This document shows, piece by piece, positions 4,480 to 19,200 of a DNA stretch of 62,604 bases. The notes beneath the pieces are model-generated. The model worked only from the letters and a program-made list of their open reading frames with translations, did no database searches and had not been told where the DNA came from. Source of the DNA: a virus. Its lineage: Duplodnaviria > Caudoviricetes. The stretch is from the IMG/VR virus record IMGVR_UViG_3300044619_000874, positions 1-62,604 of that record; one strand, given 5' to 3'. The number at the start of each line of letters is the position of its first letter. Position 1 is the first letter of the stretch. The position numbers and the translations under genes were made by a program.

Positions 4480-5162
4480 TGATCGCTGAGTCTGACTGGC
4501 TCGAACCCTACTGCCGCCAGTGCTGCACTGTGTGGAACTCCAACTGGAGCACGGTGCCATACGGCAGGGTCGGATGGAAGAAAGCAGCGGAGAAGTACTG
4601 CGGTGCGTACTGGGGCAGGCTCACGCCAGAGCACTGCATGAGGATTCACTACCGCTTCACGCAGATGCGGAAGGAGATCGATGGCCTGTCGGTTGAGTAC
4701 GGCATGATCCGGGGGCCGAACTGGGATGACAAAACCCAGTGGCCCTACGCCGCCGTCGCTCGGTTCGATGATCAAGGCAAGATGCTGACCGGCTACTTGC
4801 TGCACCCCGGGGCTGCGTCTTGCCCGTACTACGTTCGCCACTCGCTGCCAGTGCCGGGCAAAGCAAGGGGCACAACGTATCGATCGCTGCGTACGGTCGA
4901 GGACATGATGCCGGTGATCAAGCCGGTGACCGGCGAGGCGGGCAGCCGCTCCGCCACAGTCACCATCACCCGCGATGACGTTGCCCGTACGGGTGACGTT
5001 CGCAAGGGGGACTGCTACCTGTTCGACCTGACGATGGAGCACTCGCCACGAGTGACCGTCGAAGGTAGGTACATGGGCAGGGCGGTTCAGTTCGGTGCGC
5101 TCGACGAGATCATTGATACCGTGCGGTGTCGGCTCGTGTTCGCTGACCTACCTAGTGCATGA
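4476..5162 (+). CDS. Hypothetical protein
   Basis: 228 aa, GGAGG RBS, ATGA coupling. Confidence 0.65.
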   Translation: MMIAESDWLEPYCRQCCTVWNSNWSTVPYGRVGWKKAAEKYCGAYWGRLTPEHCMRIHYRFTQMRKEIDGLSVEYGMIRGPNWDDKTQWPYAAVARFDDQGKMLTGYLLHPGAASCPYYVRHSLPVPGKARGTTYRSLRTVEDMMPVIKPVTGEAGSRSATVTITRDDVARTGDVRKGDCYLFDLTMEHSPRVTVEGRYMGRAVQFGALDEIIDTVRCRLVFADLPSA

Positions 5163-5170
5163 GGTGTGCG

Positions 5171-5260
5171 ATGGATATCCAGTGGCTGCTGACGGTGATC
5201 GAATCGTGGGCGTTCATCGCCCTTCAGTTCTACGTCTTCTCATTCATCAGGAGAAACTGA
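5171..5260 (+). CDS. Small hydrophobic peptide, 29 aa (MDIQWLLTVIESWAFIALQFYVFSFIRRN)
   Basis: GAGGTG RBS; fills the gap between two genes; translated by hand, below ORF-track cutoff. Confidence 0.55.
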   Translation: MDIQWLLTVIESWAFIALQFYVFSFIRRN

Positions 5261-5262
5261 CC

Positions 5263-6042
5263 ATGAAGATTGCATACGGATACGGGCGGCACAGCACGAG
5301 CAAGCAGGCAGTGACTGCCGAGGTGCAGGAAGCGTCGGTGATGGATCAGTACGAGCGGCTGCTCAAACCCAAGGGCTACTCGTGGGGCGGCTGGTTCTAC
5401 GACGCCGCAGTGTCGGGCAGCAAGGACTTCAGCGACCGACCCGAGGGGGTGCGGGTGTACATGATGGCTGGCGAGGGCGACGCCGTGATCTGCCACAACT
5501 CCGACCGCATGTTCCGGTCGCAGGCTGATGCAGAGAAGACGGTGCTGCTGCTCCAGTCTCGGGGCGTGCAGATCGTGATGCCCGACCTGCCCTCGTTCGA
5601 GAAGGCTGACCCTCGGATGCTGGCTCGCATCCGGTTCGTCATCGCCCAGTGGGAGCGGGAGAAGATCGGCGAGCGCACCTCGTCTGGCATGCAACGCATG
5701 TCAGCCAAGGGCAAGAAGTTCGGTGGCCGTATCCAGTCGGTGCCACTCGGGTGGCGTAACACTGGCGGCGGCATCGCACCATGCCCGGAGGAGCGGGCGA
5801 GGATCGAGGAGATGGCCCGCATGCACGCCGAGGGTGCGTCGTTCGAGCGCATCTCGATGATCGTTTCCTACCCGCCCCACAACTGGCGTCGTCCGCTCGC
5901 CCGCAAGGGTGGCGGCGCATGGTCGAAGCGTTACGTCAGGCTGGCGATCAAGGCTCGGTCTCTGGGGTATCCTCGCTGCTACCTTTATGATCGGCAACAC
6001 AGAGTCGCAGTCTGTCAAGCGCAGCCAGCAGCCTGCCCTTGA
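5263..6042 (+). CDS. Serine recombinase (resolvase catalytic domain plus short recombinase DNA-binding domain)
   Basis: YGRHSTSKQ (catalytic Ser), DAAVSG, SDRMFRS, AQWEREKIGERT, PLGW; AGGAG RBS. Confidence 0.9.
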   Translation: MKIAYGYGRHSTSKQAVTAEVQEASVMDQYERLLKPKGYSWGGWFYDAAVSGSKDFSDRPEGVRVYMMAGEGDAVICHNSDRMFRSQADAEKTVLLLQSRGVQIVMPDLPSFEKADPRMLARIRFVIAQWEREKIGERTSSGMQRMSAKGKKFGGRIQSVPLGWRNTGGGIAPCPEERARIEEMARMHAEGASFERISMIVSYPPHNWRRPLARKGGGAWSKRYVRLAIKARSLGYPRCYLYDRQHRVAVCQAQPAACP

Positions 6043-8679: not shown

Positions 8680-9063
8680 CTATCGCGCCGAGTTACTGCG
8701 CCTCTCGACCTCGACCCACTCGGGCAGCGGCGTCGGGTCGTCCTTCAATCCCTTGCGTCCCATCAGCCCAGCGAGGAACTCGACGTCCACCTCACCATCC
8801 TCTTGCCGCTTTGCTTCGAGGACGTGGCCGAGGGTCAGGCTTCGCTTGCCACCACTATGAAAACCAAAATGACAATCACGGCAAAGGAGAGCGAGATTTC
8901 GTACGTCGTGGCACCGCTCACCACCACGGCGACCGACGATGTGATGCACCTCATGCGTAGACCCCGGCGAGAACTTTCGTAGCCAGCACACGGCACACCG
9001 CTCGCACAGGAAGACGTACTCCCCGATGCGACGCTTCAGTGATTCGGTACGCTTACTCGGCAT
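8680..9063 (-). CDS. HNH endonuclease
   Basis: CAVC...HEVHHI...NLALLCRDCH. Confidence 0.8.
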   Translation of the reverse strand: MPSKRTESLKRRIGEYVFLCERCAVCWLRKFSPGSTHEVHHIVGRRGGERCHDVRNLALLCRDCHFGFHSGGKRSLTLGHVLEAKRQEDGEVDVEFLAGLMGRKGLKDDPTPLPEWVEVERRSNSAR

Positions 9064-9784
9064 CGCCTGCCTCCAGTTGGGCGAGCAGGCCATCGCCAAT
9101 GCCATCAAGCGCAGCGGCGTAGGGCTGGCCGTCGAAGTCCTCGATCACCAGCCGGGCACGGGCGACCAGCAGTTCCAGCAGGTCGCGGAGTTCCTCCTTG
9201 GGATATTCGTCAGACTCCCGCTTGCATATCTCGTCGACCGCGAACCGGGAGTACACCAGTAGTTCAATGCAGAATCGATCGGTCTCTTGCCTGCGATCCC
9301 ACTGCAACTCCGAGCGGGTGATGCAGCCGTTGGTGTAGGCGTCGGCCTCGTCCAGTGGATAGACGGCAATGTCCTGCCACCACTCTTGTGCCTCGATCAG
9401 GTAGGTCTTGTAGGTCTTGCCTCGGTACTTCTTGGGCACCGCCTCGGCGACGTGTGCCAGTTTCGTTTGCTTCGGAATAGGGAGCCGCCACGCCACGCCG
9501 TCGAGCAGGTAGAACCCTCGCTCCTTCGGTGTAGAGCACCGAGAGTTGATGAAGTGAGTGGCCTCGTGAGCCCAAGTGATCGGGCACCCATCCCCCGCTC
9601 GTGCGGCTGCGGCGTCGGACTCCGGCAGCCGGGACACGACATCCATCAGGGTGGGTGGCAGGTTCTTATCCGAACATCTGCGAACCACCGGCACCTGAAC
9701 GTCGTCCGAGAGCAGCAGTGACCCCATCCATAGGATCACGATGCTCGCCACGATCACCCAGCCAAAGTCATAAGCCACCTTCAT
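9053..9784 (-). CDS. Membrane-anchored putative zinc metallopeptidase
   Basis: N-terminal hydrophobic helix; AHEATH; downstream DEADAY as possible third ligand. Confidence 0.6.
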   Translation of the reverse strand: MKVAYDFGWVIVASIVILWMGSLLLSDDVQVPVVRRCSDKNLPPTLMDVVSRLPESDAAAARAGDGCPITWAHEATHFINSRCSTPKERGFYLLDGVAWRLPIPKQTKLAHVAEAVPKKYRGKTYKTYLIEAQEWWQDIAVYPLDEADAYTNGCITRSELQWDRRQETDRFCIELLVYSRFAVDEICKRESDEYPKEELRDLLELLVARARLVIEDFDGQPYAAALDGIGDGLLAQLEAGDAE

Positions 9785-10228: not shown

Positions 10229-11751
10229 CCGACCTCCTTCTGAAGTTCTCGTGTGATCGCCTTGACCAACCACTCGTTGCCGGGCGTGCGCTTCATCTTC
10301 TTGAGCGCGCCACGCAGGTAGTCCCGGGGCAGGAGTCGGATCAGTTGTCCGCGATACGGCCCCCACATCATGCGGGCACCCCTTGCCTTGGGCGTCTCGG
10401 CACTCGGCTTCGCGAACGGGTCGACCGACTTCGAGTCGAACGTGATGCCGACCACGAGTTGCCTGCGGCGGTGCTTCTCCGCCTCCATCTCGGCGAGGGC
10501 CCTCTCCTTGTCGAGGCGTTCGAGTTCACGCATCTCGGCAGCCACGTCAGCCAGTTCGACGTCGCCTTCCTCGGTTCTCTTGAGCAACTTCTCCCGGTAC
10601 TTCTGCACCTTCTCCGGCGGCAGCACGACGTCGATGGCCGAGCACACCCGGTGGTGCCGCACGTTGTCCTGATAGTCGTAAATCTTTGCGTGCGGCTTGT
10701 GCCCGTGGGCTATCGCCATCCGCCTCGTGTAGTCCGACGGCTGGGCGTCCACGTTGTCACGCTTGTCCGGCCGCAGGGCGCGCCCCAGTATCTGGAGGTA
10801 GCGCGGCAGGCTGCGGGTCGGGGTCAGCAGGTGCAACTCCTCGACCGGAGCGTCCCACCCCATCGTCAGCACGGCGACGTTGCAGATCAGTGTGGCATCA
10901 CCCGACTCGTACCTCTTCATCTCGTCATGCCGCTCGCTCTCGCTCTGCTTGCTGTGAACGAGGGCGGCACGCACTCCGTACCTCGTCTCGATCAGGTCGC
11001 GGAATGCACGGGCGTGGCTGATGTTCGGGCAGTAGACGGCACCCTTCGTGCGGTGGTTCGATGCAACGAGTGATGCCTGCTCGTGCAGCACCATCTCGTC
11101 GGACATGATCCGCTGCACTTCGGCAGCATCGAACTCACCGACCCCACCCGTCGGCAACTTGTACGACTTGACGATGATGCGGCGGGCGGAGATGGGCACG
11201 AGCCAGCCGTGCTCGATCGCAGGCACCACGCCGTACTGCACCGGCACCCTGCCGTAGTACCGCATGGCAGGCGAGCCGTGAGGGGTCGCCGTCAGCCCAC
11301 AGATCACTGCGCCGTTGGAGCGGTAGTAATCCAGTAGGTCGAGCGTCGGCCCCCCACAGCCATAGTGCGCCTCGTCAACCACGACGAGGTCGGGCGAGTA
11401 CTTCTGGCCCCGGTTCCCGGTGAGCAGGGACTGGAGCGAGGCAACGACAATCGGTGCCTCGGGCCGGGCATACAAATCCCCCTGCTCGATCTCCACATCA
11501 CGCAGCCGGTACGCCTCCACGCCTCTGGCGATCTGCGAGCAGAGCGTGATGCGGGGGTCGATGATCAGCGTGCGGGAGTACCGCTCACTGAGGATCGCCG
11601 CGATCAGCGTCTTGCCCACACCCGTGGCGATTTCACCGAGGGCCTTGCCGTCACTCCGCAGTACTGCGTCGAGCGAGTCGACCGCATGCTGCTGGATCGG
11701 GCGAGGCTTCGGTCGCGGGTCGTGGAACAGCGTCCGTGCTTCGTGCATCAC
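10225..11751 (-). CDS. Superfamily 2 DEAH helicase
   Basis: ATGVGKT, VVDEAH, GLTATP, LTMGWD, QILGRALR; C-terminal MWGPYRG...YL motif. Confidence 0.92.
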   Translation of the reverse strand: MMHEARTLFHDPRPKPRPIQQHAVDSLDAVLRSDGKALGEIATGVGKTLIAAILSERYSRTLIIDPRITLCSQIARGVEAYRLRDVEIEQGDLYARPEAPIVVASLQSLLTGNRGQKYSPDLVVVDEAHYGCGGPTLDLLDYYRSNGAVICGLTATPHGSPAMRYYGRVPVQYGVVPAIEHGWLVPISARRIIVKSYKLPTGGVGEFDAAEVQRIMSDEMVLHEQASLVASNHRTKGAVYCPNISHARAFRDLIETRYGVRAALVHSKQSESERHDEMKRYESGDATLICNVAVLTMGWDAPVEELHLLTPTRSLPRYLQILGRALRPDKRDNVDAQPSDYTRRMAIAHGHKPHAKIYDYQDNVRHHRVCSAIDVVLPPEKVQKYREKLLKRTEEGDVELADVAAEMRELERLDKERALAEMEAEKHRRRQLVVGITFDSKSVDPFAKPSAETPKARGARMMWGPYRGQLIRLLPRDYLRGALKKMKRTPGNEWLVKAITRELQKEVG

Positions 11752-12101
11752 GCCGCCTCCGATGCTCGGTAGGCTCGGCGAAGCGCGCCGTACATCTTCT
11801 CAAGTCGAACGTCGTTTCGACCGCTTGCCACCCACCGCTTCGCCCGCTCCTCCGGCGTCCACGACTGGCGGATCGCCGCTGCCCTCTCCAGAATCTCCTG
11901 CTCGGTCGGATCGTCCTTCGACGTCGACCGGAAGGACTCCGCCACCGGGCGTGTCTTGTTCGCGAACTTCAGCATCCGGTAGAGCGCGTGCCTCGGCACG
12001 TTGTGAATCCTCGCCGCCTCCTTCACCGACGTCCGCTGCGTCAGGTAGTGCTCCATCGCCCTCGACATCTGGGTCGACCGTGATCCCTCTCTCGCTTCCA
12101 T
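11748..12101 (-). CDS. HTH DNA-binding protein
   Basis: SVKEAARIHNVPRHALYR; AAGGAGG RBS before ATG 12101. Confidence 0.65.
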   Translation of the reverse strand: MEAREGSRSTQMSRAMEHYLTQRTSVKEAARIHNVPRHALYRMLKFANKTRPVAESFRSTSKDDPTEQEILERAAAIRQSWTPEERAKRWVASGRNDVRLEKMYGALRRAYRASEAA

Positions 12102-12267
12102 GCGGTATCCCTCCTTGAAGAATGGTTCGGACAAACAAAATCGATTGCAGTGACTTGACCTCCTGCACCAGCGCAGGAAGGTCGACGTGGATGAGGCGTG
12201 GCAGAATCTCTAGCGAGAGGTTCTCCAGCCGGTACTCGATCTCGGTGAGGTCGCGATCACTTAACAC
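11800..12267 (-). CDS. Hypothetical protein (3' part overlaps HTH gene)
   Basis: GGAGG RBS and plausible helical N-terminus; C-terminal part may be off-frame run-on. Confidence 0.4.
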   Translation of the reverse strand: MLSDRDLTEIEYRLENLSLEILPRLIHVDLPALVQEVKSLQSILFVRTILQGGIPHGSERGITVDPDVEGDGALPDAADVGEGGGEDSQRAEARALPDAEVREQDTPGGGVLPVDVEGRSDRAGDSGEGSGDPPVVDAGGAGEAVGGKRSKRRST

Positions 12268-12919
12268 TGGCTGCCTCCCTGAAAGGTTTCATGGCCTCGC
12301 GGTCGGCCTTCAGTGCCATGAGGTCGTCCTCGGTGATGCGACCTGACGCGACCGACATGGCAGCGCGAGCCAGCACCGAGTCACGCTCCTGCTCCGACTT
12401 GGCTGCGACCAGTGCCTGACGGGCGAGGCCGAGGGCCGAGTTGGGCTTGGCCTTCGGGCCTTCGAGCCCCGCACCGTCGAGGTCGCTGTCTGCTGCCACG
12501 CCGCAGAGTTCGGCGTAGTGCTTGCGTCGGAAGTAAGTGGTCTCGCTGAGAACCTTCTGCGGCTGACGCTCGGTCAACTTCGACGACGACCGCTCGAACT
12601 GACCGCTCACATGACGCAGCGTCGAGACCTCCCACTGCTCGTCGCCGATGATGAAAGTCTTCGAGGCGAGGTCGAGCCCGTGGCGGCAGTTGGCCGGGGT
12701 CACTGCATCGAGCACCTCATCGAGCGTGGCGTACATTCCGTACGCGCCCTTGGCGTTCTTCCTGATCGGCTGGTACTCGGCGCGGGCCTTGCACTTCGCC
12801 TCGGCCAACTTGTCGGTGTACTCCGACTCCATCGCTGGCATGAACGAGGTCTGAGGCTTGAGCCTCGGGTCGCGCTGGCACGGGTTGACGCAGGTCGGTT
12901 CTTCTTTCTGATCGCTCAT
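12257..12919 (-). CDS. ERF-family single-strand annealing protein
   Basis: YATLDEVLDAV...TYFRRKHY..LCGVAAD.D.DG; adjacent to exonuclease. Confidence 0.85.
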   Translation of the reverse strand: MSDQKEEPTCVNPCQRDPRLKPQTSFMPAMESEYTDKLAEAKCKARAEYQPIRKNAKGAYGMYATLDEVLDAVTPANCRHGLDLASKTFIIGDEQWEVSTLRHVSGQFERSSSKLTERQPQKVLSETTYFRRKHYAELCGVAADSDLDGAGLEGPKAKPNSALGLARQALVAAKSEQERDSVLARAAMSVASGRITEDDLMALKADREAMKPFREAASVK

Positions 12920-13914
12920 CGACTTACTCCTTTGAAGGCCCACTCTGGAAACTGAAGGACGTTGATCTCGCCGTATCCGCTGGGCAGCCAGTGGCCGCTC
13001 TCTTTGCGGGCCTCGATCTCGTCGAGGTCGTCGGTGATCCACTGCTCGCACATGGCGACGAGCGGCTCGGGGAGTTCGCACACTTGGACTTGGTGCGATG
13101 GCGTCGTGGAGCAAGCCACGAACGTGAGGCGTTGGTCAGAGAGCCCAGCCGCAGCGGCGATCTGGGAGTACCAAGCGGAGGCGTAGTGGTAGCCGTGGTC
13201 GAGGCAGCCCCTCCACCACGATTCGAGTGGGCGGGCGTCGCGGCACGACTTCCAGTCCAGCAGCACGCCGCCGTGAGTGACGGCGTCGTAGCGGCAGCGG
13301 ATCAGGTGGCCGTCGGGTCGGCGATAGAACGCCGAGAGTTCGTGCTTCCAGATATCCTCGTAGAGGTCTCTCGCCATTGCGTTCGAGAAGAACTGCGAGA
13401 GGATCGCCTCGACGATGGCGAGGTTCTCTTCCGACGCGACGATGGCGTCAGGCCCCTGCTCATCACGCCACGCCTTCGCGGCCTTGGAGGAGGAGAGCCC
13501 GCCGCCTGCGGTGCGGAACTCCTCCGGTACCGAGACGAGGTGAGAGCGGTACCGGGTCGGGCCCAGTTCGAGGGCCGCGTGTACAAGTGTTCCGAGGTCG
13601 GTAGCCGCCGACGAGAAGGCCGGGCGGGTGCGAGCGATGTGTCGCTCGTGGAACCAAACCGGCCCGTGGTAGCGGAAGTCCCAGCCGATGGACTTCGAGG
13701 GGCAGGGGAGGGTATGGTAGACGTGGTTCGGCAGGCCCTCCACTAGGAGGGTCTGGCCGGGCTGCAACCCCTCAAGGGCGGCAAGAAGTTCCGCAAGAGT
13801 CGGGGCGACTGGATTCGAACCAGCGACCTCTACGTCCCGAACGTAGCGCGAACCCTCGCCGCCGGTCTCAAGGAGATCGGCCATGTCAGCACTGCTTGCA
13901 TCTGATTCAGTCAT
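12916..13914 (-). CDS. Exonuclease VIII/RecE-like PD-(D/E)XK exonuclease (DUF3799-like)
   Basis: GTLVHAALE, RCRYD, LDWKS, YHYASAWY; start codon uncertain (13914 or 13884). Confidence 0.85.
   Translation of the reverse strand: MTESDASSADMADLLETGGEGSRYVRDVEVAGSNPVAPTLAELLAALEGLQPGQTLLVEGLPNHVYHTLPCPSKSIGWDFRYHGPVWFHERHIARTRPAFSSAATDLGTLVHAALELGPTRYRSHLVSVPEEFRTAGGGLSSSKAAKAWRDEQGPDAIVASEENLAIVEAILSQFFSNAMARDLYEDIWKHELSAFYRRPDGHLIRCRYDAVTHGGVLLDWKSCRDARPLESWWRGCLDHGYHYASAWYSQIAAAAGLSDQRLTFVACSTTPSHQVQVCELPEPLVAMCEQWITDDLDEIEARKESGHWLPSGYGEINVLQFPEWAFKGVSR
13799..13850 (-). other. attP-like core: 3' portion of tRNA-Pro(CGG)
   Basis: CTACG-TT-CGG-GA-CGTAG anticodon arm, AGGTC, GCTGG-TTCGAAT-CCAGT T-arm, CGCCCCGA acceptor strand; no 5' acceptor strand or D-arm; about 120 bp from integrase. 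Confidence 0.85.
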
Positions 13915-13966
13915 TGGTATTCTCGCGACGAAAGGAGCAGTGTACAGAAGTTCAGTGGGGGAGTCA

Positions 13967-14797
13967 ATGATCGGGTTGGCAGAACGCTATCTATTGGGGA
14001 GGGACGTTTCTCGCGGATACGCGGGGAACATCAGAAGGACGGCGGCCAAGATGGATAGGGCGGGGATCACCCCTGCCAATATCAACGGGCCTGCGGTCAG
14101 CATGTGGCTCTCCTCCTTGAAAGCAAACGGTCTGTCGAGCGTGAGTATAGCGAGTGAGCGCCGTAGCGCAATCACAATCTGGAAGTTCGGCATAGAGGAC
14201 GGGTCGATCACTACACCCATCCGCCATGTCCTTCAGCCTCGTGTCACTCGTCGTGTCACTCGTGCCTTCGGACGCGATGATCTTACTGGTGCTGTCAAGC
14301 GTCTCAAAGAATTGATCCTGCCCGCGTTTCAGAGCGGTTGCTGTCGAAAGCAGTGGATCGAGGCTTGGATTTTCTACGTCTACGAAACCGGAGCGCGGTT
14401 CACCGACGCATACGAACTCCGTTCCGAAGCACTCGTTCCCGGCGGGGTTGGCTGGACTGCGAGCAAGACGGGACGGCCGGTCATCAAACGCCTGTCAGCG
14501 AGTACTTCAGATCGGCTGGCAGCACTAGCATCCCTGTCCCCCGACGGCACGGTGTTCAAGTGGGCCGTGTCGCGGCGGCATGCGTTCGCTGCGATCAGAG
14601 CGGTGTTCAAGCAGATCGGGCTGGATGGCGGAAGGACGCAATGGCTGCGCCGCAGCGGGGCAACGCACGCCGAGATGATCAAGAAAGGTGCGGCACGCGA
14701 GTACCTGTGCCACGCCACGCAGGGGCTGGCCGAATCCAACTACATAGATTTTACGCAGTTGCTACCCGAGTTGCCAGTTCCGCCCGGGATTGAGTGA
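13967..14797 (+). CDS. int: Tyrosine recombinase/integrase
   Basis: ETGARF (R1), SKTG (K), QWLRRSGAT (R2), YLCH, NYID (Tyr); SAM-like N-terminal domain. Confidence 0.85.
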   Translation: MIGLAERYLLGRDVSRGYAGNIRRTAAKMDRAGITPANINGPAVSMWLSSLKANGLSSVSIASERRSAITIWKFGIEDGSITTPIRHVLQPRVTRRVTRAFGRDDLTGAVKRLKELILPAFQSGCCRKQWIEAWIFYVYETGARFTDAYELRSEALVPGGVGWTASKTGRPVIKRLSASTSDRLAALASLSPDGTVFKWAVSRRHAFAAIRAVFKQIGLDGGRTQWLRRSGATHAEMIKKGAAREYLCHATQGLAESNYIDFTQLLPELPVPPGIE

Positions 14798-14814
14798 GGT
14801 CGAGCGACACTCCA

Positions 14815-14845
14815 TTGACGAACGCGGGAGTGACCGCGCTATAGT
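14815..14845 (+). promoter_or_regulatory. Sigma70-like promoter candidate
   Basis: TTGACG-N19-TATAGT; spacer is long. Confidence 0.4.
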
Positions 14846-14877
14846 GGCTCTGGCGGTTCATTCACTCGCAGCACCCG

Positions 14878-15065
14878 CCCCGACTAATCAAAAGCGCGAG
14901 CCTAAATAACAGCGGCCAGTCCGCAACGCAAACCTGCACACGAAGTCCGGTCGCTCTCCCCGACGGCCCGGCAAACTGAAGGTAGACCAATAAGGTGCAG
15001 AGAGGCGGGAGTGAGAGTTGGGAGGAGGCCCCTCCCACCTTCTCATATTAGTCGGGGTCTGCACC
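14878..15065 (+). ncRNA. Candidate structured RNA or origin element
   Basis: CCCCGACTAAT (14878)/ATTAGTCGGGG (15047); GGTGCAGA (14994)/TCTGCACC (15058); inner hairpin 15012-15045. Confidence 0.35.
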
Positions 15066-15083
15066 CACCAAGGAGAACCAGAG

Positions 15084-15569
15084 ATGATCGCGATCAATCC
15101 GGCAATGCGATTCGGTAAGCACAAGGGGACTCTCGTCAGCGAGGTGCCGACCCAATACCTGACGTGGGTCATGGAGACATTCCCGCGACCGCCTGATTAC
15201 GTCGTGGCCGAAGTTGTGCGCCGTGGCTCTACGCAGTTCGGCGGGGATGCGATCCTCTGTCAGGCTGCTATCTCGGACAGGGCGTTCGATTCAGCAAGGG
15301 GTGGCCGGAAGAAGTGGCGGCGAAAGCCGCCGAGGGGGGCGAGTAACCCAAGGAGGGCTGCGAAGCGAGCAGCCCGGGGAGAGGTCGCACGACAGAAGGC
15401 GAAGGAGTCAGAGTCCCGAATGGCGAAGGGCGTCTGGATTGTCGGTGAGAACTTCGAGCGGCTCCGCCACGAGTTCATTGCAAGCGGCGGCGATGTGGAC
15501 TCCTGCCCGTTCGAGGCACCAGACAACGCTGACTTCCTCGATCACCTCTACAGCATCACCCACTCCTAG
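15084..15569 (+). CDS. DUF3820-like domain protein with basic tail
   Basis: MRFGKHKG...VPTQYLTW; AAGGAG RBS. Confidence 0.75.
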   Translation: MIAINPAMRFGKHKGTLVSEVPTQYLTWVMETFPRPPDYVVAEVVRRGSTQFGGDAILCQAAISDRAFDSARGGRKKWRRKPPRGASNPRRAAKRAARGEVARQKAKESESRMAKGVWIVGENFERLRHEFIASGGDVDSCPFEAPDNADFLDHLYSITHS

Positions 15570-18500
15570 CCTTCCGCTCCGACCGGGTAGCCCGGAACTT
15601 GGCAGCGCGCCTCTCGGTCGTGCTCTCTGCCTTCGAGGCGGCACGCGACTCCTTGTCCAAAACCTTCTTCCTTGCGAGCAGGGCTTGGAACTGCGGTGGC
15701 AGGCCCTCGGCGACCTCCTCGGGGATCGAGGTGGTAGAGAACGTGCGACGGCCCGGCACGCGCTGGAGCATCTCGTCGATGGCAGCCCGCTCGTCCCGGG
15801 TTCGCTGCTCGTCGCTGACGTAGTAGTGCCGGACGGGAGCCACGGAGTTCCACACAGCCCCGAGCGCACCGCTGGCCCGGTCTACGTTGGGGTCGAGGGC
15901 TGTGCCCACGAAGCCCGTGATGCGTGACGCACCGGGGATCAGGAGGTCGGCCGCCCACTTCACCGGCTCCTTCAGCCTGAAGGATTTGCCGTCGCCGCCA
16001 GCGAGATTGATCACTCCGCCGATCGCCTTGTCCCACTGCGACTGCGAGTACCCAACGTCCCGTCTGGTGAAGGCGTCCTTGCCGGTCGCCATCTCGGTGA
16101 ACACCCGCAGTGGTGGTGCAGCCTGTGCCGAGAAGTTCCGCAGCGTGGCACCCGCGCTTGCGGCAGCCGAGTCGAGGGCACCGTTGGCCGACGGCTTGTA
16201 GGCGAACGAGTCGAGGAACGACGCACCCGGGATATCGATCCCGCCGAGCACAGTGGACATGCCCTCGGGTGCGAGGCCGATGTTCATCGCGTCGGGCACG
16301 CCGAGCGACCGGAGTGTCTCGGGGTTGACGGTGAAGCCGCCCTTCTCCCGATAAGACTGCGGCAGGTACTGCGCGTTCTCGTCGGAGTTCTGCAACCGCT
16401 CGCGAGTCTGGAGAGCGTGGCGATATGCACCGCCGGGGTTCATCAACTCCTCGATGGCGAACTGGCCCGACCTTGCGTTGTACGAGTAGAACGGGGCCCA
16501 CAGGTTGCGGATGCCCTTCTCGAAGTCGGTGAGCGATTCGTAGTCAACGTGGATTCGCTTCAGCCTGCGGGCTGCTTCGCGAGGTGCAACACCTTCGGCG
16601 AGCAGGGCGTTGTAGCCCGAGAGCCGAGCGTGAGCGTCCGACCACTCCGATGCCTGCTCTGCCTTGCGGAAGAATGGATTGTTCGTGACCTTCCGAACTG
16701 GACGCTGGACGTTCGAGCCGGAGCCTACAGGGTCGGCGACCCAGTCCTTGCCGAACTGCGTCCACGACCGCTGCCTGTTCCCAAACGACACGCCCTTGAT
16801 TCCGTACCAGTCGAGCGAGTTCTTGTCTGTGACGATGTCCTTGACGGTCTGTGCGTTCGGGATCGGCAGCGGCATCGGCGTCGAGCCGGGCAGCACTTCG
16901 AGCAGCGACTTGCCAGTCCTGTCTCCGATCTCCCGCTCGACCATGCCCATCCCCTTGAGCGTGCCGGACTCGGCAAGGTCATTGAGGTAGGCTTGCAGGA
17001 TTTCTTCGTCACCCTTTCCGCCGGTCGCCATCTGTGCGTAGGCGGGCAGGGACTTGATGTACGGCAGGGCCTCGTCGTAACTGCCGTTGAGCAGCGACTG
17101 CGTGTGGTACATGCTCTTCGAGAGAGCGACCGGGTCTTTGACGGTGAGGAAGTTGCCGATCGTGCCCGACGCCCAGTCGCGCGTCACGCGGCTCGGCCAC
17201 GCCAAGACCTGTGACTTGAACGCCCGCATGTGCTCGGCGAGGAACTTGCCCGCTGCGCCCTGCGCCGCTGGGGACTTGACGAGGTTCTCCGCGTCGGTCA
17301 GCCGATCGATGAAGGACTGCGGAACGGAGTACCCGGAAAGGTCATTGACTCCGAGTTTCGCAAGAGCGCGAGCCTGCGCCCCCACGGCCCCGGCATTCAC
17401 GAGCGGGGTTTTTGCCTTGCCGGACTTCAGCCCGACCATCGAAAGTGCCTTGGCAAGCGGCACCATCTTCTCGCCCTTCGCAGCCCCAGCCACCTGCCTC
17501 ACGGCCCGGCTGGTGATGGCGTCTCCGAGTGCCTCGCCCGTAGCGATGGCGGCATACCGCCCGGTCGTGTACCGAGCGATGGCCTCGGCTGGGTGATTGC
17601 CAAACGCCACAGGATCAGCGGGGTCGAGGTCGCCGAGGAAGTCGGCGAGTGCTGCGGCCCGACGCTGCCCATACTTCGGGGTGCCCTTCGTCTTGGCGGC
17701 AAGTTCGATTGCGGTCTGGTGAGCCTTCGATCCCTGCACCGTCTGGTAGTACGCGCTATTTGGATCGTTGATCTCTTTGAACAGTTGGGCCGCCACCTCG
17801 TCACGCGACCAAAGTTTTCCGGCTGCGTCCTTGCGTCCCATCAGGAACTCGGGACGCTTGGCATAGAACCGCAGTTGGTCGATCGCGCCCGGCAGTTGCA
17901 GCGACTTCTTTCTGGCGATCTGGTCGCCAGTGATCAGGTCGAAGTACGCCCCCGCAGGGTTGCCGTTCTTGTTCAGCACTGTGCGATCAAGTGCCGTCGT
18001 GAGCGAGTATGGGCGATACTCGGCCCCGTACCTGTGCTTGAGCAGGTGGGCATTGATGCCAGCGTCCTTACTCTCCTGAAGGATGCTGACCTTGTTGCGA
18101 GCCCAGTCGTCGGCGATGGCCTTCAACTTCGGCGTGTTCTCGATCAGGTCGACGTCCTTGGCCGTAACCGCCACGCCCTCGATGTAGCGGTCGAGTGCCT
18201 CCTGAACGCGAACGTCCTTGGGGTCACTGAGCCCAGTGCGCCGCGCTACGTCGTCCGGTATCTTGGCGAACTGTAGTTGTTGAGCAACTTCACCTGCCGC
18301 TCGACCGCCGCGAGCAACACCATCCTGTCCGGCGTTGTTGATCTGCGTGACCGTCGATTGGCCGATCGGCTCGTAGAGTTTTCCGACCGCCTTGTTGGCG
18401 AACTGGTGGGCGGCAAGGCCGACCGGAGACCATCGGACTGTCTCTGGGATTCGATCGAGGACGCGAGCCGCAACATCCCCCGCAGCAGCACCAAGCGGAT

Positions 18501-19200
18501 CACCGACAAGCGATCCGAGTCCAAGCGATCGAGATAGCGGCGTGCTCTTGATGTCATCGTAGGACAGGTTGTTCGTGTTGAGGAAGCCGTCGAGGTGCCG
18601 CTGTTGGTCAGCACCCCACTTCCCTTGGGCGGTGCGGTTCTGGATGAGGTCTTCGAGGTTCGTGGCACGCTGCGCGGCACGAGTTCCCACAAGCGGGTCG
18701 GCTGCGTGCTCGGCGTAGTCGTCCACGCCTCGGCCCAGTCGGCGAAGTGCGCGGCCAGCCCGGCCGGTGACGTCCTCGGTCTTCGTACCGGCGGCGATGA
18801 GTCTCTGCTGGAGCGACTTGCTCGCCACCTCGGCAGCGTCATCGATCAGGCCGGTGGCCGCAGCCGCTCGGCCGCCCGGTGTCAGAGCCTTGAGCGGGCC
18901 GGAGAGGTACGTCAGCGGGTCAAGGGCAACGCTCGCCACCGTGCCCAGTGCGAACCTGCCGACAGGGTTGGTAATCCCCGTGGACTTCTCCACGAGATCG
19001 TCAGCCGAGTGTCGAGTGGCGGGGTCGAACGGATTCTCGAACGTCCCGTCCATGCCGTAGTCAACGGCGTTCCGCACGATGGCGGCCGGGGTGTCGAGAT
19101 ACCACAGCGCATTACTGACGCCACGAAGCGTGCGCGTCAGCGGGCTGGCGGAGGAGCCGTCTGGCGCGGCGGGAGTGGATGGCTCTGCGAAGTAGGCCAT
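15556..19200 (-). CDS. Large internal virion (ejection-type) protein
   Basis: 1214 aa, Ala/Gly-rich, last gene of virion operon; DYESLT.FEK.IR..WAPFYS motif; function inferred from position. Confidence 0.65.
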   Translation of the reverse strand: MAYFAEPSTPAAPDGSSASPLTRTLRGVSNALWYLDTPAAIVRNAVDYGMDGTFENPFDPATRHSADDLVEKSTGITNPVGRFALGTVASVALDPLTYLSGPLKALTPGGRAAAATGLIDDAAEVASKSLQQRLIAAGTKTEDVTGRAGRALRRLGRGVDDYAEHAADPLVGTRAAQRATNLEDLIQNRTAQGKWGADQQRHLDGFLNTNNLSYDDIKSTPLSRSLGLGSLVGDPLGAAAGDVAARVLDRIPETVRWSPVGLAAHQFANKAVGKLYEPIGQSTVTQINNAGQDGVARGGRAAGEVAQQLQFAKIPDDVARRTGLSDPKDVRVQEALDRYIEGVAVTAKDVDLIENTPKLKAIADDWARNKVSILQESKDAGINAHLLKHRYGAEYRPYSLTTALDRTVLNKNGNPAGAYFDLITGDQIARKKSLQLPGAIDQLRFYAKRPEFLMGRKDAAGKLWSRDEVAAQLFKEINDPNSAYYQTVQGSKAHQTAIELAAKTKGTPKYGQRRAAALADFLGDLDPADPVAFGNHPAEAIARYTTGRYAAIATGEALGDAITSRAVRQVAGAAKGEKMVPLAKALSMVGLKSGKAKTPLVNAGAVGAQARALAKLGVNDLSGYSVPQSFIDRLTDAENLVKSPAAQGAAGKFLAEHMRAFKSQVLAWPSRVTRDWASGTIGNFLTVKDPVALSKSMYHTQSLLNGSYDEALPYIKSLPAYAQMATGGKGDEEILQAYLNDLAESGTLKGMGMVEREIGDRTGKSLLEVLPGSTPMPLPIPNAQTVKDIVTDKNSLDWYGIKGVSFGNRQRSWTQFGKDWVADPVGSGSNVQRPVRKVTNNPFFRKAEQASEWSDAHARLSGYNALLAEGVAPREAARRLKRIHVDYESLTDFEKGIRNLWAPFYSYNARSGQFAIEELMNPGGAYRHALQTRERLQNSDENAQYLPQSYREKGGFTVNPETLRSLGVPDAMNIGLAPEGMSTVLGGIDIPGASFLDSFAYKPSANGALDSAAASAGATLRNFSAQAAPPLRVFTEMATGKDAFTRRDVGYSQSQWDKAIGGVINLAGGDGKSFRLKEPVKWAADLLIPGASRITGFVGTALDPNVDRASGALGAVWNSVAPVRHYYVSDEQRTRDERAAIDEMLQRVPGRRTFSTTSIPEEVAEGLPPQFQALLARKKVLDKESRAASKAESTTERRAAKFRATRSERKARSG

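What the first reader, a model, noticed from the sequence alone, without database searches (positions are those of the whole stretch)
12916..14797. attP (half tRNA-Pro) inside the first gene of the DNA metabolism operon: candidate integration-driven lysogeny switch
Seen: the 3' part of tRNA-Pro(CGG) at 13799-13850 is read in frame (RYVRDVEVAGSNPVAPT) within the RecE-like ORF. Both candidate ATGs (13914, 13884) lie on the integrase side, and I see no SD-supported start or terminator downstream of the core. Established: tRNA 3' ends are common attP cores, and some mycobacteriophages place attP inside the repressor gene. Inference: integration would separate promoter and start codon from the recE-erf-helicase-resolvase-sigma operon and put it behind the host tRNA. 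Excision would rebuild the gene. That could be a repressor-independent switch, consistent with no CI being recognised.
Basis: partly seen in the sequence, partly recalled or inferred. Interest (0 to 1): 0.85.

Follow-up and report, generated by a model that had tools for sequence, protein, structure and literature searches.

The report
Phage attachment site inside exonuclease gene
In this lake phage the site used to insert into a host proline-tRNA gene lies inside the translated start of its first recombination gene, so insertion should cut that gene and its operon off from their promoter and start codon.

Summary
Window 13849-13800 (minus strand) is the 3' part of tRNA-Pro(CGG). It matches host tRNA genes exactly, mostly Planctomycetota, and runs to 13795 in two Pirellulales MAGs. 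It lies in frame in the RecE-like gene 12916-13914(-), 118 nt from a divergent small tyrosine integrase (13967-14797).

Translation through the core is well supported:
- There is no in-frame ATG/GTG/TTG between ATG 13884 and TTG 13767.
- The conserved helix just after the core is confidently folded.
- Relatives L104/L105 read the same tRNA piece in another frame, with phase shifts on the two sides that cancel (2/0 against 0/2).
- L110 places a different tRNA piece behind an SD-backed ATG.
- L106 and L108 carry the 5' half of the tRNA instead.
- The relative with no matching integrase (L107) has no tRNA piece.

The only strong consensus promoter (TTGACT-17-TACACT, 13967-13939) is on the integrase side. 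Integration should therefore separate promoter and start from the exo-erf-helicase operon.

Not shown: any attL/attR junction, any transcript, or independence from a repressor.

Verdict: a real feature and a new variant of known kinds (attP inside a gene; expression that depends on the circular junction). The "switch" role remains a hypothesis.

The parts
13795..13849 (-). attP common core: 3' part of tRNA-Pro(CGG), from the 3' strand of the D stem through the anticodon arm and T arm to discriminator A at 13800, plus up to 5 nt of trailer. It encodes residues 22(3rd base)-39 of the exonuclease.
   Evidence: exact identity 13849-13800 to host tRNA genes; to 13795 in L006 and L032; translation
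13850..13914 (-). Translated leader of the exonuclease gene (ATG 13914, second ATG 13884) on the integrase side of the core
   Evidence: Indels against L104/L105 are 12 and 3 nt, and the phase shift is compensated. AF2 pLDDT is below 50 for residues 1-35.
12916..13798 (-). Body of the RecE-like PD-(D/E)XK exonuclease. The conserved helix 40-48 starts directly after the core.
   Evidence: Pfam DUF3799 and PDDEXK_1, both below their cut-offs. Family profile against RecE nuclease domain PDB 3H4R, E 3e-11. AF2 mean pLDDT 85.
13939..13967 (-). Candidate promoter P_exo: TTGACT (13967-13962), 17 nt, TACACT (13944-13939). The -35 overlaps the integrase ATG by one base.
   Evidence: 3 sites found against 0.6 expected in shuffles. 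The same TTGACC-17-TACACT is invariant in L104/L105. Consensus match only; no transcript data.
13896..13923 (+). Candidate integrase promoter TTGCAT-16-TATTCT, facing P_exo. Its -10 lies just upstream (exo sense) of the exonuclease ATG 13914, on the opposite strand.
   Evidence: Read by eye. Similar hexamers are seen in L104 (TTGTGT-16-TATGCT) and L105 (TTGAGT-16-TATTCT). It is below the threshold of the scan.
13967..14797 (+). Small tyrosine integrase (276 aa) with core-binding and catalytic domains and no arm-binding domain
   Evidence: phrog_1, E 1.9e-9. 49 homologues, many carrying PF00589. Invariant R144, K167, R228/R229, Y259. AF2 pLDDT 94. Foldseek top hits are lambda Int(75-356), XerH, XerA and Cre.
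12257..12919 (-). Erf-like single-strand annealing protein. Its start overlaps the exonuclease stop.
   Evidence: phrog_2324, E 1.4e-20; PF04404; coordinates
11748..12134 (-). Small HTH_psq-domain protein in the same operon
   Evidence: PF05225, 27.6 bits
10225..11751 (-). Superfamily-2 helicase of the same operon
   Evidence: phrog_16, E 2.7e-55; ResIII and Helicase_C
8680..9108 (-). HNH endonuclease further down the same strand

Best explanation
The window is a complete temperate phage genome from lake water, and its host is most likely a planctomycete (Pirellulales). Its attP is the anticodon-arm-to-3'-end part of tRNA-Pro(CGG). This attP lies inside the coding sequence of the first gene of the leftward recombination/replication operon (RecE-like exonuclease, Erf, HTH, helicase and others). 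Translation starts at ATG 13914 or 13884 and runs through a short disordered leader. It then crosses the tRNA-derived 17 codons and enters the nuclease, whose first conserved helix begins right after the core. The operon's consensus promoter and the start codon sit between the core and the divergent two-domain integrase. Recombination with the host tRNA gene, inferred to occur in the anticodon loop, would rebuild the tRNA at attL. It would place the exonuclease body and the operon directly behind the tRNA with no promoter and no start codon of their own. P_exo, the leader and int would stay at attR. Full-length exonuclease, and P_exo-driven expression of the operon, is therefore possible only from the excised or circular genome. 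Shown here: the anatomy, the coding status of the core, and the conservation of the arrangement. Inferred: that integration occurs, where the crossover lies, that the promoter is active, and that the uncoupling is used for regulation.
For: (1) Core identity to host tRNA genes: 47 nt exact in 102 loci, and 50-55 nt with flanks.
(2) The T-arm variant carried by relative L104 is exact in whole tRNA-Pro(CGG) genes of 2 of 401 Planctomycetota genomes, so attP follows host tRNA variants.
(3) Three other host loci (L034, L058, L102) carry a second, 3'-half-only copy of the core, so this tRNA is used as an integration site.
(4) The integrase is a genuine tyrosine recombinase.
(5) Coding through the core:
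- No in-frame start lies between 13884 and TTG 13767.
- Residues 40-48, just after the core, form a confident helix (block 41-50 pLDDT 93).
- The linker after the core differs mostly at third codon positions: window against L104 4/20, 3/21, 13/21; window against L105 5/19, 4/20, 14/20.
- Phase from ATG2 to the core is 2 in the window and 0 in L104/L105. Phase from the core to the CCGAAC codons is 0 against 2. The total is 0 in all three.
(6) Among 17 family proteins with an N-terminus, 13 carry tRNA-Pro-derived peptides: 7 in frame A, 3 in frame B, 2 with the 5' half, 1 with the anticodon arm only.
(7) L110 (exonuclease 30% identical) has a CAT-anticodon tRNA piece behind GGGAGG-N6-ATG.
(8) L106 has no usable start other than the ATG upstream of its tRNA piece.
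(9) L107, which has no integrase of this family nearby, has no tRNA piece.
(10) P_exo is the only consensus-like promoter on the minus strand between 13967 and 7006.
(11) In a computed attL with 6 of 11 host loci, the exonuclease frame meets a stop 74-86 nt upstream of the core with no start in between.
Against: No integrated form was found.
- None of the 103 core copies in the species-representative genomes is followed by the exonuclease body, apart from L028, a binned copy of the free phage.
- The exonuclease was found in 0 of 401 Planctomycetota genomes.
- The integrase was found in 1 of 381 Phycisphaerae-class genomes, and that one is the same phage contig.
- The L105 core variant was found in 0 of 401 genomes.

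The promoter calls are consensus matches in a phylum whose promoters are poorly known.

The leader upstream of the core shows only a weak codon-position signal (3/21, 7/22, 8/20).

L104/L105 have an in-frame ATG just after the core (METLAAG). It could give a leaderless-length enzyme from attL, and P0009 starts at that position.

In 5 of 11 host loci the computed attL has an in-frame GTG or TTG upstream of the core.

No terminator was seen after the core, so the host tRNA promoter could still transcribe erf and the genes behind it. Erf has its own AAGGAG-N8-ATG.
Confidence: 0.68

Rival explanations
1. Integration itself is the main, repressor-independent lysis/lysogeny switch. Physical uncoupling of P_exo and the start codon from the operon, perhaps together with the face-to-face P_exo/P_int pair, replaces a CI-type repressor.
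For: All the anatomy above. No repressor-like family was recognised among 40 ORFs scanned against Pfam and/or PHROGs. The integrase lacks an arm-binding domain, as in phages with integration-dependent immunity (PMC9262239, passages read). int and attP flank the promoter and start in six related loci (four distinct lineages, two pairs being near-identical) and in L110.
Against: Most early ORFs have no hit at all, so a repressor could easily be missed. An HTH_psq protein sits in the operon. The structural genes and other early genes lie far from attP and need their own control. There are no expression or lysogen data.
Confidence: 0.15
2. An architectural by-product. attP must sit next to int, and the only room is the 5' end of the neighbouring gene. 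The frame is kept open merely because the start lies upstream. Lysogeny is governed elsewhere, and splitting the exonuclease has no regulatory role.
For: The leader is disordered and dispensable for the fold. Relatives without it exist (L107, P0009, P0018). L104/L105 have an ATG right after the core.
Against: The same placement recurs with a different tRNA (L110) and with the opposite tRNA half (L106, L108). Frames are re-compensated each time, and no lineage has simply evolved a start and promoter downstream.
Confidence: 0.3
3. Rewiring rather than silencing. At attL the host tRNA-Pro promoter reads through into erf, the helicase and the genes behind them, so the operon minus the exonuclease is expressed in lysogens.
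For: The tRNA and the operon are co-oriented. No terminator-like site follows the core. The host terminator region would move to attR. Erf has its own SD and ATG.
Against: No data on transcripts. Rho-dependent or other termination cannot be scored with these tools.
Confidence: 0.25
4. The exonuclease really starts at TTG 13767 or GTG 13743, and the tRNA piece lies in a 5' UTR. The long ORF is chance.
For: Two of the three frames of the tRNA piece are open. GAGGGG precedes the TTG.
Against: GAGGGG abuts the TTG with no spacer. Such a start would remove the conserved, confidently folded helix 40-48. It does not explain the third-position bias of the linker or the compensating phases.
Confidence: 0.06
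5. The tRNA piece is not an active attP. It is a relic or an RNA element.
For: No junctions were found. L104 folds as a 69-nt pseudo-tRNA in ARAGORN.
Against: Exact 50-55 nt identity to living host tRNAs, variants that follow the host, and an intact, conserved integrase 118 nt away.
Confidence: 0.06

Closest known systems
Integration-dependent immunity of cluster G/N/P mycobacteriophages (BPs, Brujita and others; Broussard et al. 2013, as described in PMC9262239, passages read)
   Same: attP, a tRNA 3'-end common core, lies inside a phage protein-coding gene and is translated. Integration changes what that gene can make. The integrase works without arm-type sites. attB is a tRNA gene. The Brujita integrase structure 5vfz is among the fold matches.
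   Different: There the split gene is the repressor. attP is near its 3' end, so integration removes a degradation tag and activates it. rep and int are co-transcribed. Here the split gene is a RecE-like nuclease. attP is at its 5' end, so integration removes promoter and start. int is divergent. The integrase ends in ...PPGIE with no ssrA-like tag.
SSV-type 'suicidal' integrases of archaeal viruses and plasmids (PMC8371274, passages read)
   Same: A tRNA-derived att site is embedded in frame in an ORF, and the ORF is partitioned on integration.
   Different: There the ORF is the integrase itself, and the review calls the type exclusively archaeal. Here the integrase stays intact and another gene is split, in a bacterial tailed phage.
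Expression dependent on the circular junction in Tn916-family elements and IS circles (recalled; no paper read here)
   Same: Promoter on one side of the joint and genes on the other, so expression needs the excised circular form.
   Different: Those are transposons or ICEs, the joint is not a tRNA-derived coding segment, and no translation crosses it.
tRNA-dependent lysogeny (Guerrero-Bustamante and Hatfull 2024, PMC10865867, abstract read)
   Same: Integration at a tRNA gene by a tyrosine integrase where restoring the tRNA is the issue. This is relevant to relatives L106, L108 and P0013, which lack the 3' half.
   Different: Those phages carry a separate whole tRNA gene. Here the window's attP restores the tRNA in the ordinary way, and the L106 type would restore it from a phage-borne 5' half.
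RecE/RecT-type and Erf-type phage recombination modules
   Same: A PD-(D/E)XK exonuclease is followed by a single-strand annealing protein.
   Different: I know of no described module whose exonuclease gene carries attP.

Membership tests
tRNA-gene attP of a tyrosine integrase | Adjacent tyrosine recombinase gene | tested here: met
   Int at 13967-14797: phrog_1, conserved R-K-R-Y positions, lambda Int/Xer/Cre fold
tRNA-gene attP of a tyrosine integrase | Block of identity with a host tRNA gene running to its 3' end | tested here: met
   50-55 nt exact. The L104 variant is exact in 2 of 401 genomes.
tRNA-gene attP of a tyrosine integrase | attL/attR junctions observed in a host genome | tested here: not met
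   None among the 103 core copies. Exonuclease in 0 of 401 genomes. Integrase in 1 of 381, and that is the free-phage contig. MAGs often lack prophages, so this is only 'not found'.
tRNA-gene attP of a tyrosine integrase | Crossover position inside the core | not testable with these tools
   An anticodon-loop crossover is inferred. The only segment shared by the 3'-half, 5'-half and arm-only variants is the anticodon arm.
Integration-dependent immunity system | attP inside the repressor gene, with rep and int co-transcribed | tested here: not met
   The gene is RecE-like and divergent from int
Integration-dependent immunity system | C-terminal ssrA-like tags on Int and on the split protein | tested here: not met
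   Int ends ...LPVPPGIE and the exonuclease ends ...AFKGVSR
Integration-dependent immunity system | Integrase without an arm-binding domain | tested here: met
   The 276-aa model aligns with lambda Int residues 75-356, TM 0.70-0.74
SSV-type suicidal integrase | att site inside the integrase ORF | tested here: not met
   The core is 118 nt upstream of the int ATG, inside the gene on the other strand
RecE-like PD-(D/E)XK exonuclease (DUF3799) | Sequence match to the family or to the solved nuclease domain | tested here: met
   Profile A1 against 3H4R, E 3e-11, covering profile positions 54-316. Pfam DUF3799 gives 24.8 bits, just under the 26-bit cut-off.
Junction-dependent (circular-form) expression | Promoter on one side of the joint and the genes it drives on the other, shown by transcripts | tested here: inconclusive
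   The consensus promoter is placed correctly and conserved. No RNA run holds the phage (0 RNA rows).

The most novel reading that the evidence does not exclude
A lineage of planctomycete phages uses site-specific integration itself as the on/off device for its early recombination/replication operon. The promoter and start codon lie on the integrase side of attP and the genes on the other side. The tRNA-derived core is translated as part of the first protein. A face-to-face P_exo/P_int pair makes integrase and operon transcription mutually exclusive. Sister lineages achieve the same split with the 5' half of the tRNA plus their own tRNA promoter, so that the prophage expresses the rebuilt host tRNA.
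Probability: 0.2. Interest if true: 0.8.

Novelty: new variant of a known kind. Interest (0 to 1): 0.6.

Why it matters
If integration really is what turns the RecE/Erf/helicase operon off and excision what turns it on, this would be a second kind of integration-coupled control. The known one, in mycobacteriophages, works by truncating the repressor. This one would be in an unrelated, uncultivated phage group of Planctomycetota, a phylum with almost no phage genetics.

It also gives a clean natural example of one tRNA sequence serving three roles at once: recombination site, tRNA 3' half and protein-coding segment. Related phages read it in two different frames. The 5'-half variants raise a testable question about which half of a tRNA gene an element may replace.

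In practice, the small arm-less integrases with defined tRNA-Pro targets could be tools for Planctomycetota.

Tried and rejected
The DNA behind P0004-P0016 and P0019 was therefore not seen, and their tRNA pieces are inferred from peptides only.

2. Search for integrated forms:
- No core copy is flanked by the exonuclease body.
- Exonuclease in 0 of 401 Planctomycetota genomes.
- Integrase in 1 of 381 class-level genomes, and that is the phage contig itself.
- tblastn of 49 integrase homologues against the 102 host loci hit only L028.
- Logan contigs of four lake runs were laid on 13400-14250. In X1 one contig spans the attP form. In X3, X12 and X13 the phage contigs break inside the core with equal depth on both sides. 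The loose ends there belong to other tRNA genes or other elements. No attL/attR was seen. Contigs drop rare forms, so this shows nothing about absence.

3. GenBank phages have no relative; the only hit is a 42-nt tRNA match.

4. The metagenome scan added only a near-identical copy (L142), L107-like loci and distant nucleases.

5. Host from binning was rejected. The Phycisphaerales bin that holds the phage contig (G003) has no tRNA within 3 mismatches of the core other than the phage's own copy. I therefore prefer the Pirellulales genomes G001 and G002.

6. I considered that L106 and L108 might be prophage ends or chimeras. I rejected this because the large upstream ORF is homologous to window 15556-19200 and a matching integrase lies between it and the exonuclease.

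7. Earlier notes of this scan contained nothing on this locus.

8. Paper searches listed no paper describing an attP inside an exonuclease gene or any planctomycete phage att site. That covers only the held library and those search terms. Supplements were not consulted.
Full report
What the window is. The window is one complete IMG/VR virus record of 62,604 bp, rated 100% complete by CheckV, with about 63% G+C. GenBank phages hold no relative. Twenty lake-water sequencing runs hold the 1-kb stretch around the finding.

The observation. The Rfam tRNA model hits 13803-13863 on the minus strand at 29.3 bits. ARAGORN finds no whole tRNA. A 47-nt stretch (13846-13800) is exact in 102 loci of species-representative genomes. 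Their record titles are mostly Planctomycetota (Pirellulales, Planctomycetaceae, Kuenenia), with some Lentisphaeria/Victivallales, Eremiobacterota and Puniceicoccales/Opitutales.

Extending the match shows identity to host tRNA-Pro(CGG) from 13849, the 3' strand of the D stem, to the discriminator at 13800. In two Pirellulales lake MAGs (L006, L032) it runs 5 nt further into the trailer, to 13795. The ORF 12916-13914(-) reads straight through it.

The neighbours.
- The ORF is a RecE-like PD-(D/E)XK nuclease. The Pfam hits are just under their cut-offs. A profile of 20 family members hits the RecE nuclease domain 3H4R at E 3e-11, from profile position 54 onward.
- It is followed on the same strand by an Erf-type annealing protein whose ATG overlaps the exonuclease stop, then a small HTH_psq protein, an SF2 helicase and an HNH endonuclease.
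- Upstream and divergent is a 276-aa tyrosine integrase starting at 13967. The evidence is phrog_1; 49 homologues, many carrying PF00589; invariant R144, K167, R228/R229 and Y259; an AF2 model with pLDDT 94; and best fold matches to lambda Int residues 75-356, XerH, XerA and Cre. It has no arm-binding domain.

Is the core translated? Five lines of evidence say yes.
- After ATG 13914 and ATG 13884 the next in-frame ATG/GTG/TTG is TTG 13767. None lies within the core or between it and residue 50.
- The segment right after the core (residues 40-48, LAELLAALE) is conserved as DLPAA-type sequence across the family. It is a confident helix in the model, while residues 1-35 have pLDDT below 50. The folded protein therefore begins where the core ends, and a start at TTG 13767 would delete that helix.
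- Differences between the window and its relatives L104 and L105 in this linker fall mostly on third codon positions: 13/21 against 4/20 and 3/21, and 14/20 against 5/19 and 4/20.
- L104 and L105 carry the same tRNA-Pro piece with other T arms, but read it in the other open frame (EALRSGRRGR.F.S...). The distance from the shared ATGGCCGA to the core is 35 nt in the window and 36 nt in the relatives (phase 2 against 0). The distance from the core to the conserved CCGAAC codons is 66 nt against 65 and 62 nt (phase 0 against 2). The whole stays in frame in all three. All other indels in the leader are 3 or 12 nt.
- The leader itself evolves fast and shows little codon-position bias (3/21, 7/22, 8/20). 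Which ATG is used is therefore open.

How general is it? Eight related loci were found in IMG/VR. Two pairs are near-identical, so they represent six lineages. All eight share a homologue of the large upstream ORF (window 15556-19200), and seven have a divergent integrase between it and the exonuclease (for L110, by ORF position only).
- L104 and L105/L109 carry the 3' part of tRNA-Pro(CGG).
- L106 and L108/L111 carry the 5' part instead, tRNA positions 1 to about 49 or 43. It is again in frame, and in L106 the only usable start is the ATG upstream of the piece.
- L110, whose nuclease is only 30% identical, carries the 3' part of a CAT-anticodon tRNA (22.1 bits, below the gathering score) behind GGGAGG-N6-ATG.
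- L107 has no integrase of this family nearby, has no tRNA piece, and its gene starts about 20 codons before the domain.
- Among the 20 proteins of the family alignment, 3 lack their N-terminus. Of the other 17, 13 carry tRNA-Pro-derived peptides, 2 (P0006, P0019) carry other D-arm-like peptides that I could not resolve without DNA, and 2 (P0009, P0018) carry none.
- In IMG/VR, 27 stretches hold the tRNA-Pro(CGG) anticodon-arm 20-mer. The seven that belong to this phage family are the only clear internal fragments; the others I read as whole or contig-end-cut tRNA genes.

Is it an attP? No junction was seen, but four things support it. The identity block has the classical extent. The L104 variant is exact in whole tRNA-Pro(CGG) genes of 2 of 401 sampled Planctomycetota genomes; the L105 variant was found in 0 of 401. 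Three host loci carry an extra 3'-half-only copy of the window's core, belonging to other elements. The only segment common to all family variants is the anticodon arm, which fits a crossover in the anticodon loop; that last point is an inference.

Consequences of integration. The consensus scan finds TTGACT-17-TACACT at 13967-13939 on the minus strand. It is invariant as TTGACC-17-TACACT in L104/L105, and its -35 overlaps the integrase ATG. No other consensus-like minus-strand promoter occurs until 7006, and no terminator-like site follows the core.

By eye, a weaker promoter-like pair on the plus strand (TTGCAT-16-TATTCT, 13896-13923) faces P_exo, with the two inferred start points a few bases apart. 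This pair is conserved in type in L104 and L105.

Because the tRNA piece and the operon are co-oriented, recombination gives this attL: host promoter, whole tRNA, exonuclease body, erf and the rest. It gives this attR: int, P_int/P_exo, leader, core, host trailer. In a computed attL with 11 host loci, the exonuclease frame meets a stop 74-86 nt upstream of the core with no start in 6 of them, and has an in-frame GTG or TTG in 5.

Full-length exonuclease and P_exo-driven operon transcription are thus restricted to the excised form. Whether the host tRNA promoter reads into erf in lysogens cannot be decided here.

What is not shown. I found no attL/attR. No RNA run holds the phage. There is no evidence for or against a repressor: of the 40 ORFs scanned, many have no family. 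The "switch" therefore remains a hypothesis. I put the structural reading at about 0.7, a selected regulatory role at roughly 0.35, and a repressor-independent switch at 0.15-0.2.

Comparison with what is known. Three systems resemble it.
- The integration-dependent immunity systems of mycobacteriophages have attP in the repressor gene (PMC9262239, passages read).
- The archaeal SSV-type integrases have the att site in the int gene, and the review calls them exclusively archaeal (PMC8371274, passages read).
- Tn916-family elements and IS circles express genes only across the circular junction (recalled, not read).

It is a member of none of these. The split gene is a nuclease, the cut is at the 5' end so promoter and start are lost rather than a C-terminal tag, int is divergent and stays whole, and there are no ssrA-like tails. 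My three paper searches listed nothing describing this arrangement. I class it as a new variant of a known kind.

Noticed in passing
L106:5945-5996 and L108:5945-5990 (also L111): Sister phages carry the 5' part of tRNA-Pro(CGG) (position 1 to about 49 or 43) in frame in the exonuclease leader, in place of the 3' part. Integration would then rebuild the tRNA at attR from a phage 5' half and a host 3' half, and would fuse the host tRNA promoter and 5' half to the exonuclease body. Both phages share TTGCGG-16-CATAAT about 12-15 nt upstream of the tRNA 5' end (seen by eye). This could be the promoter for the rebuilt tRNA.
   Followed up: partly
window 13896-13967: P_exo (minus strand) and a weaker promoter-like pair for int (plus strand) lie face to face, with inferred start points 2-3 nt apart. 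The P_exo -35 overlaps the int ATG. The layout would make the two transcriptions mutually exclusive. The same layout is present in L104 and L105.
   Followed up: partly
L028 (contig of a Phycisphaerales MAG), 5.3 kb: A binned MAG contig is identical to the free (attP) form of this phage over 4.5 kb. That genome has no matching tRNA-Pro of its own within 3 mismatches, so the binning is probably not a host signal.
   Followed up: yes
L034:933-979, L058:555-601, L102:6683-6729: Three host genomes (Kuenenia, Pirellulaceae, Pirellulales) carry a copy of the same core that consists of the tRNA-Pro(CGG) 3' half only, with a non-tRNA left flank. These are attR-like ends of other integrated elements whose integrases are unrelated to this one.
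   Followed up: partly
L104:6049-6117: ARAGORN folds the leader plus core of L104 as a 69-nt pseudo tRNA-Pro with a shortened D arm and 5 of 7 acceptor pairs. The conserved GGCGGCGAGG upstream of the core may be a remnant of a once complete tRNA copy.
   Followed up: no
window 5095-6042 (+): A second recombinase is present: a 315-aa small serine recombinase (PF00239 resolvase domain; phrog_95 and phrog_125). It lies on the plus-strand block opposite the exonuclease operon.
   Followed up: no
window 14810-14850 (+): TTGACG-19-TATAGT lies just downstream of the int stop, pointing at ORF 15018-15569 (a weak PF12843 hit).
   Followed up: no
host loci L002, L032, L048, L073, L099 and others, about 20-45 nt upstream of tRNA-Pro(CGG): Many Planctomycetota tRNA-Pro(CGG) genes share a conserved upstream box TCTCTCCCGCGTGCGGC followed by an inverted repeat ending CGCACC just before the tRNA 5' end. 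L108 keeps GCACCCA at the matching place.
   Followed up: no
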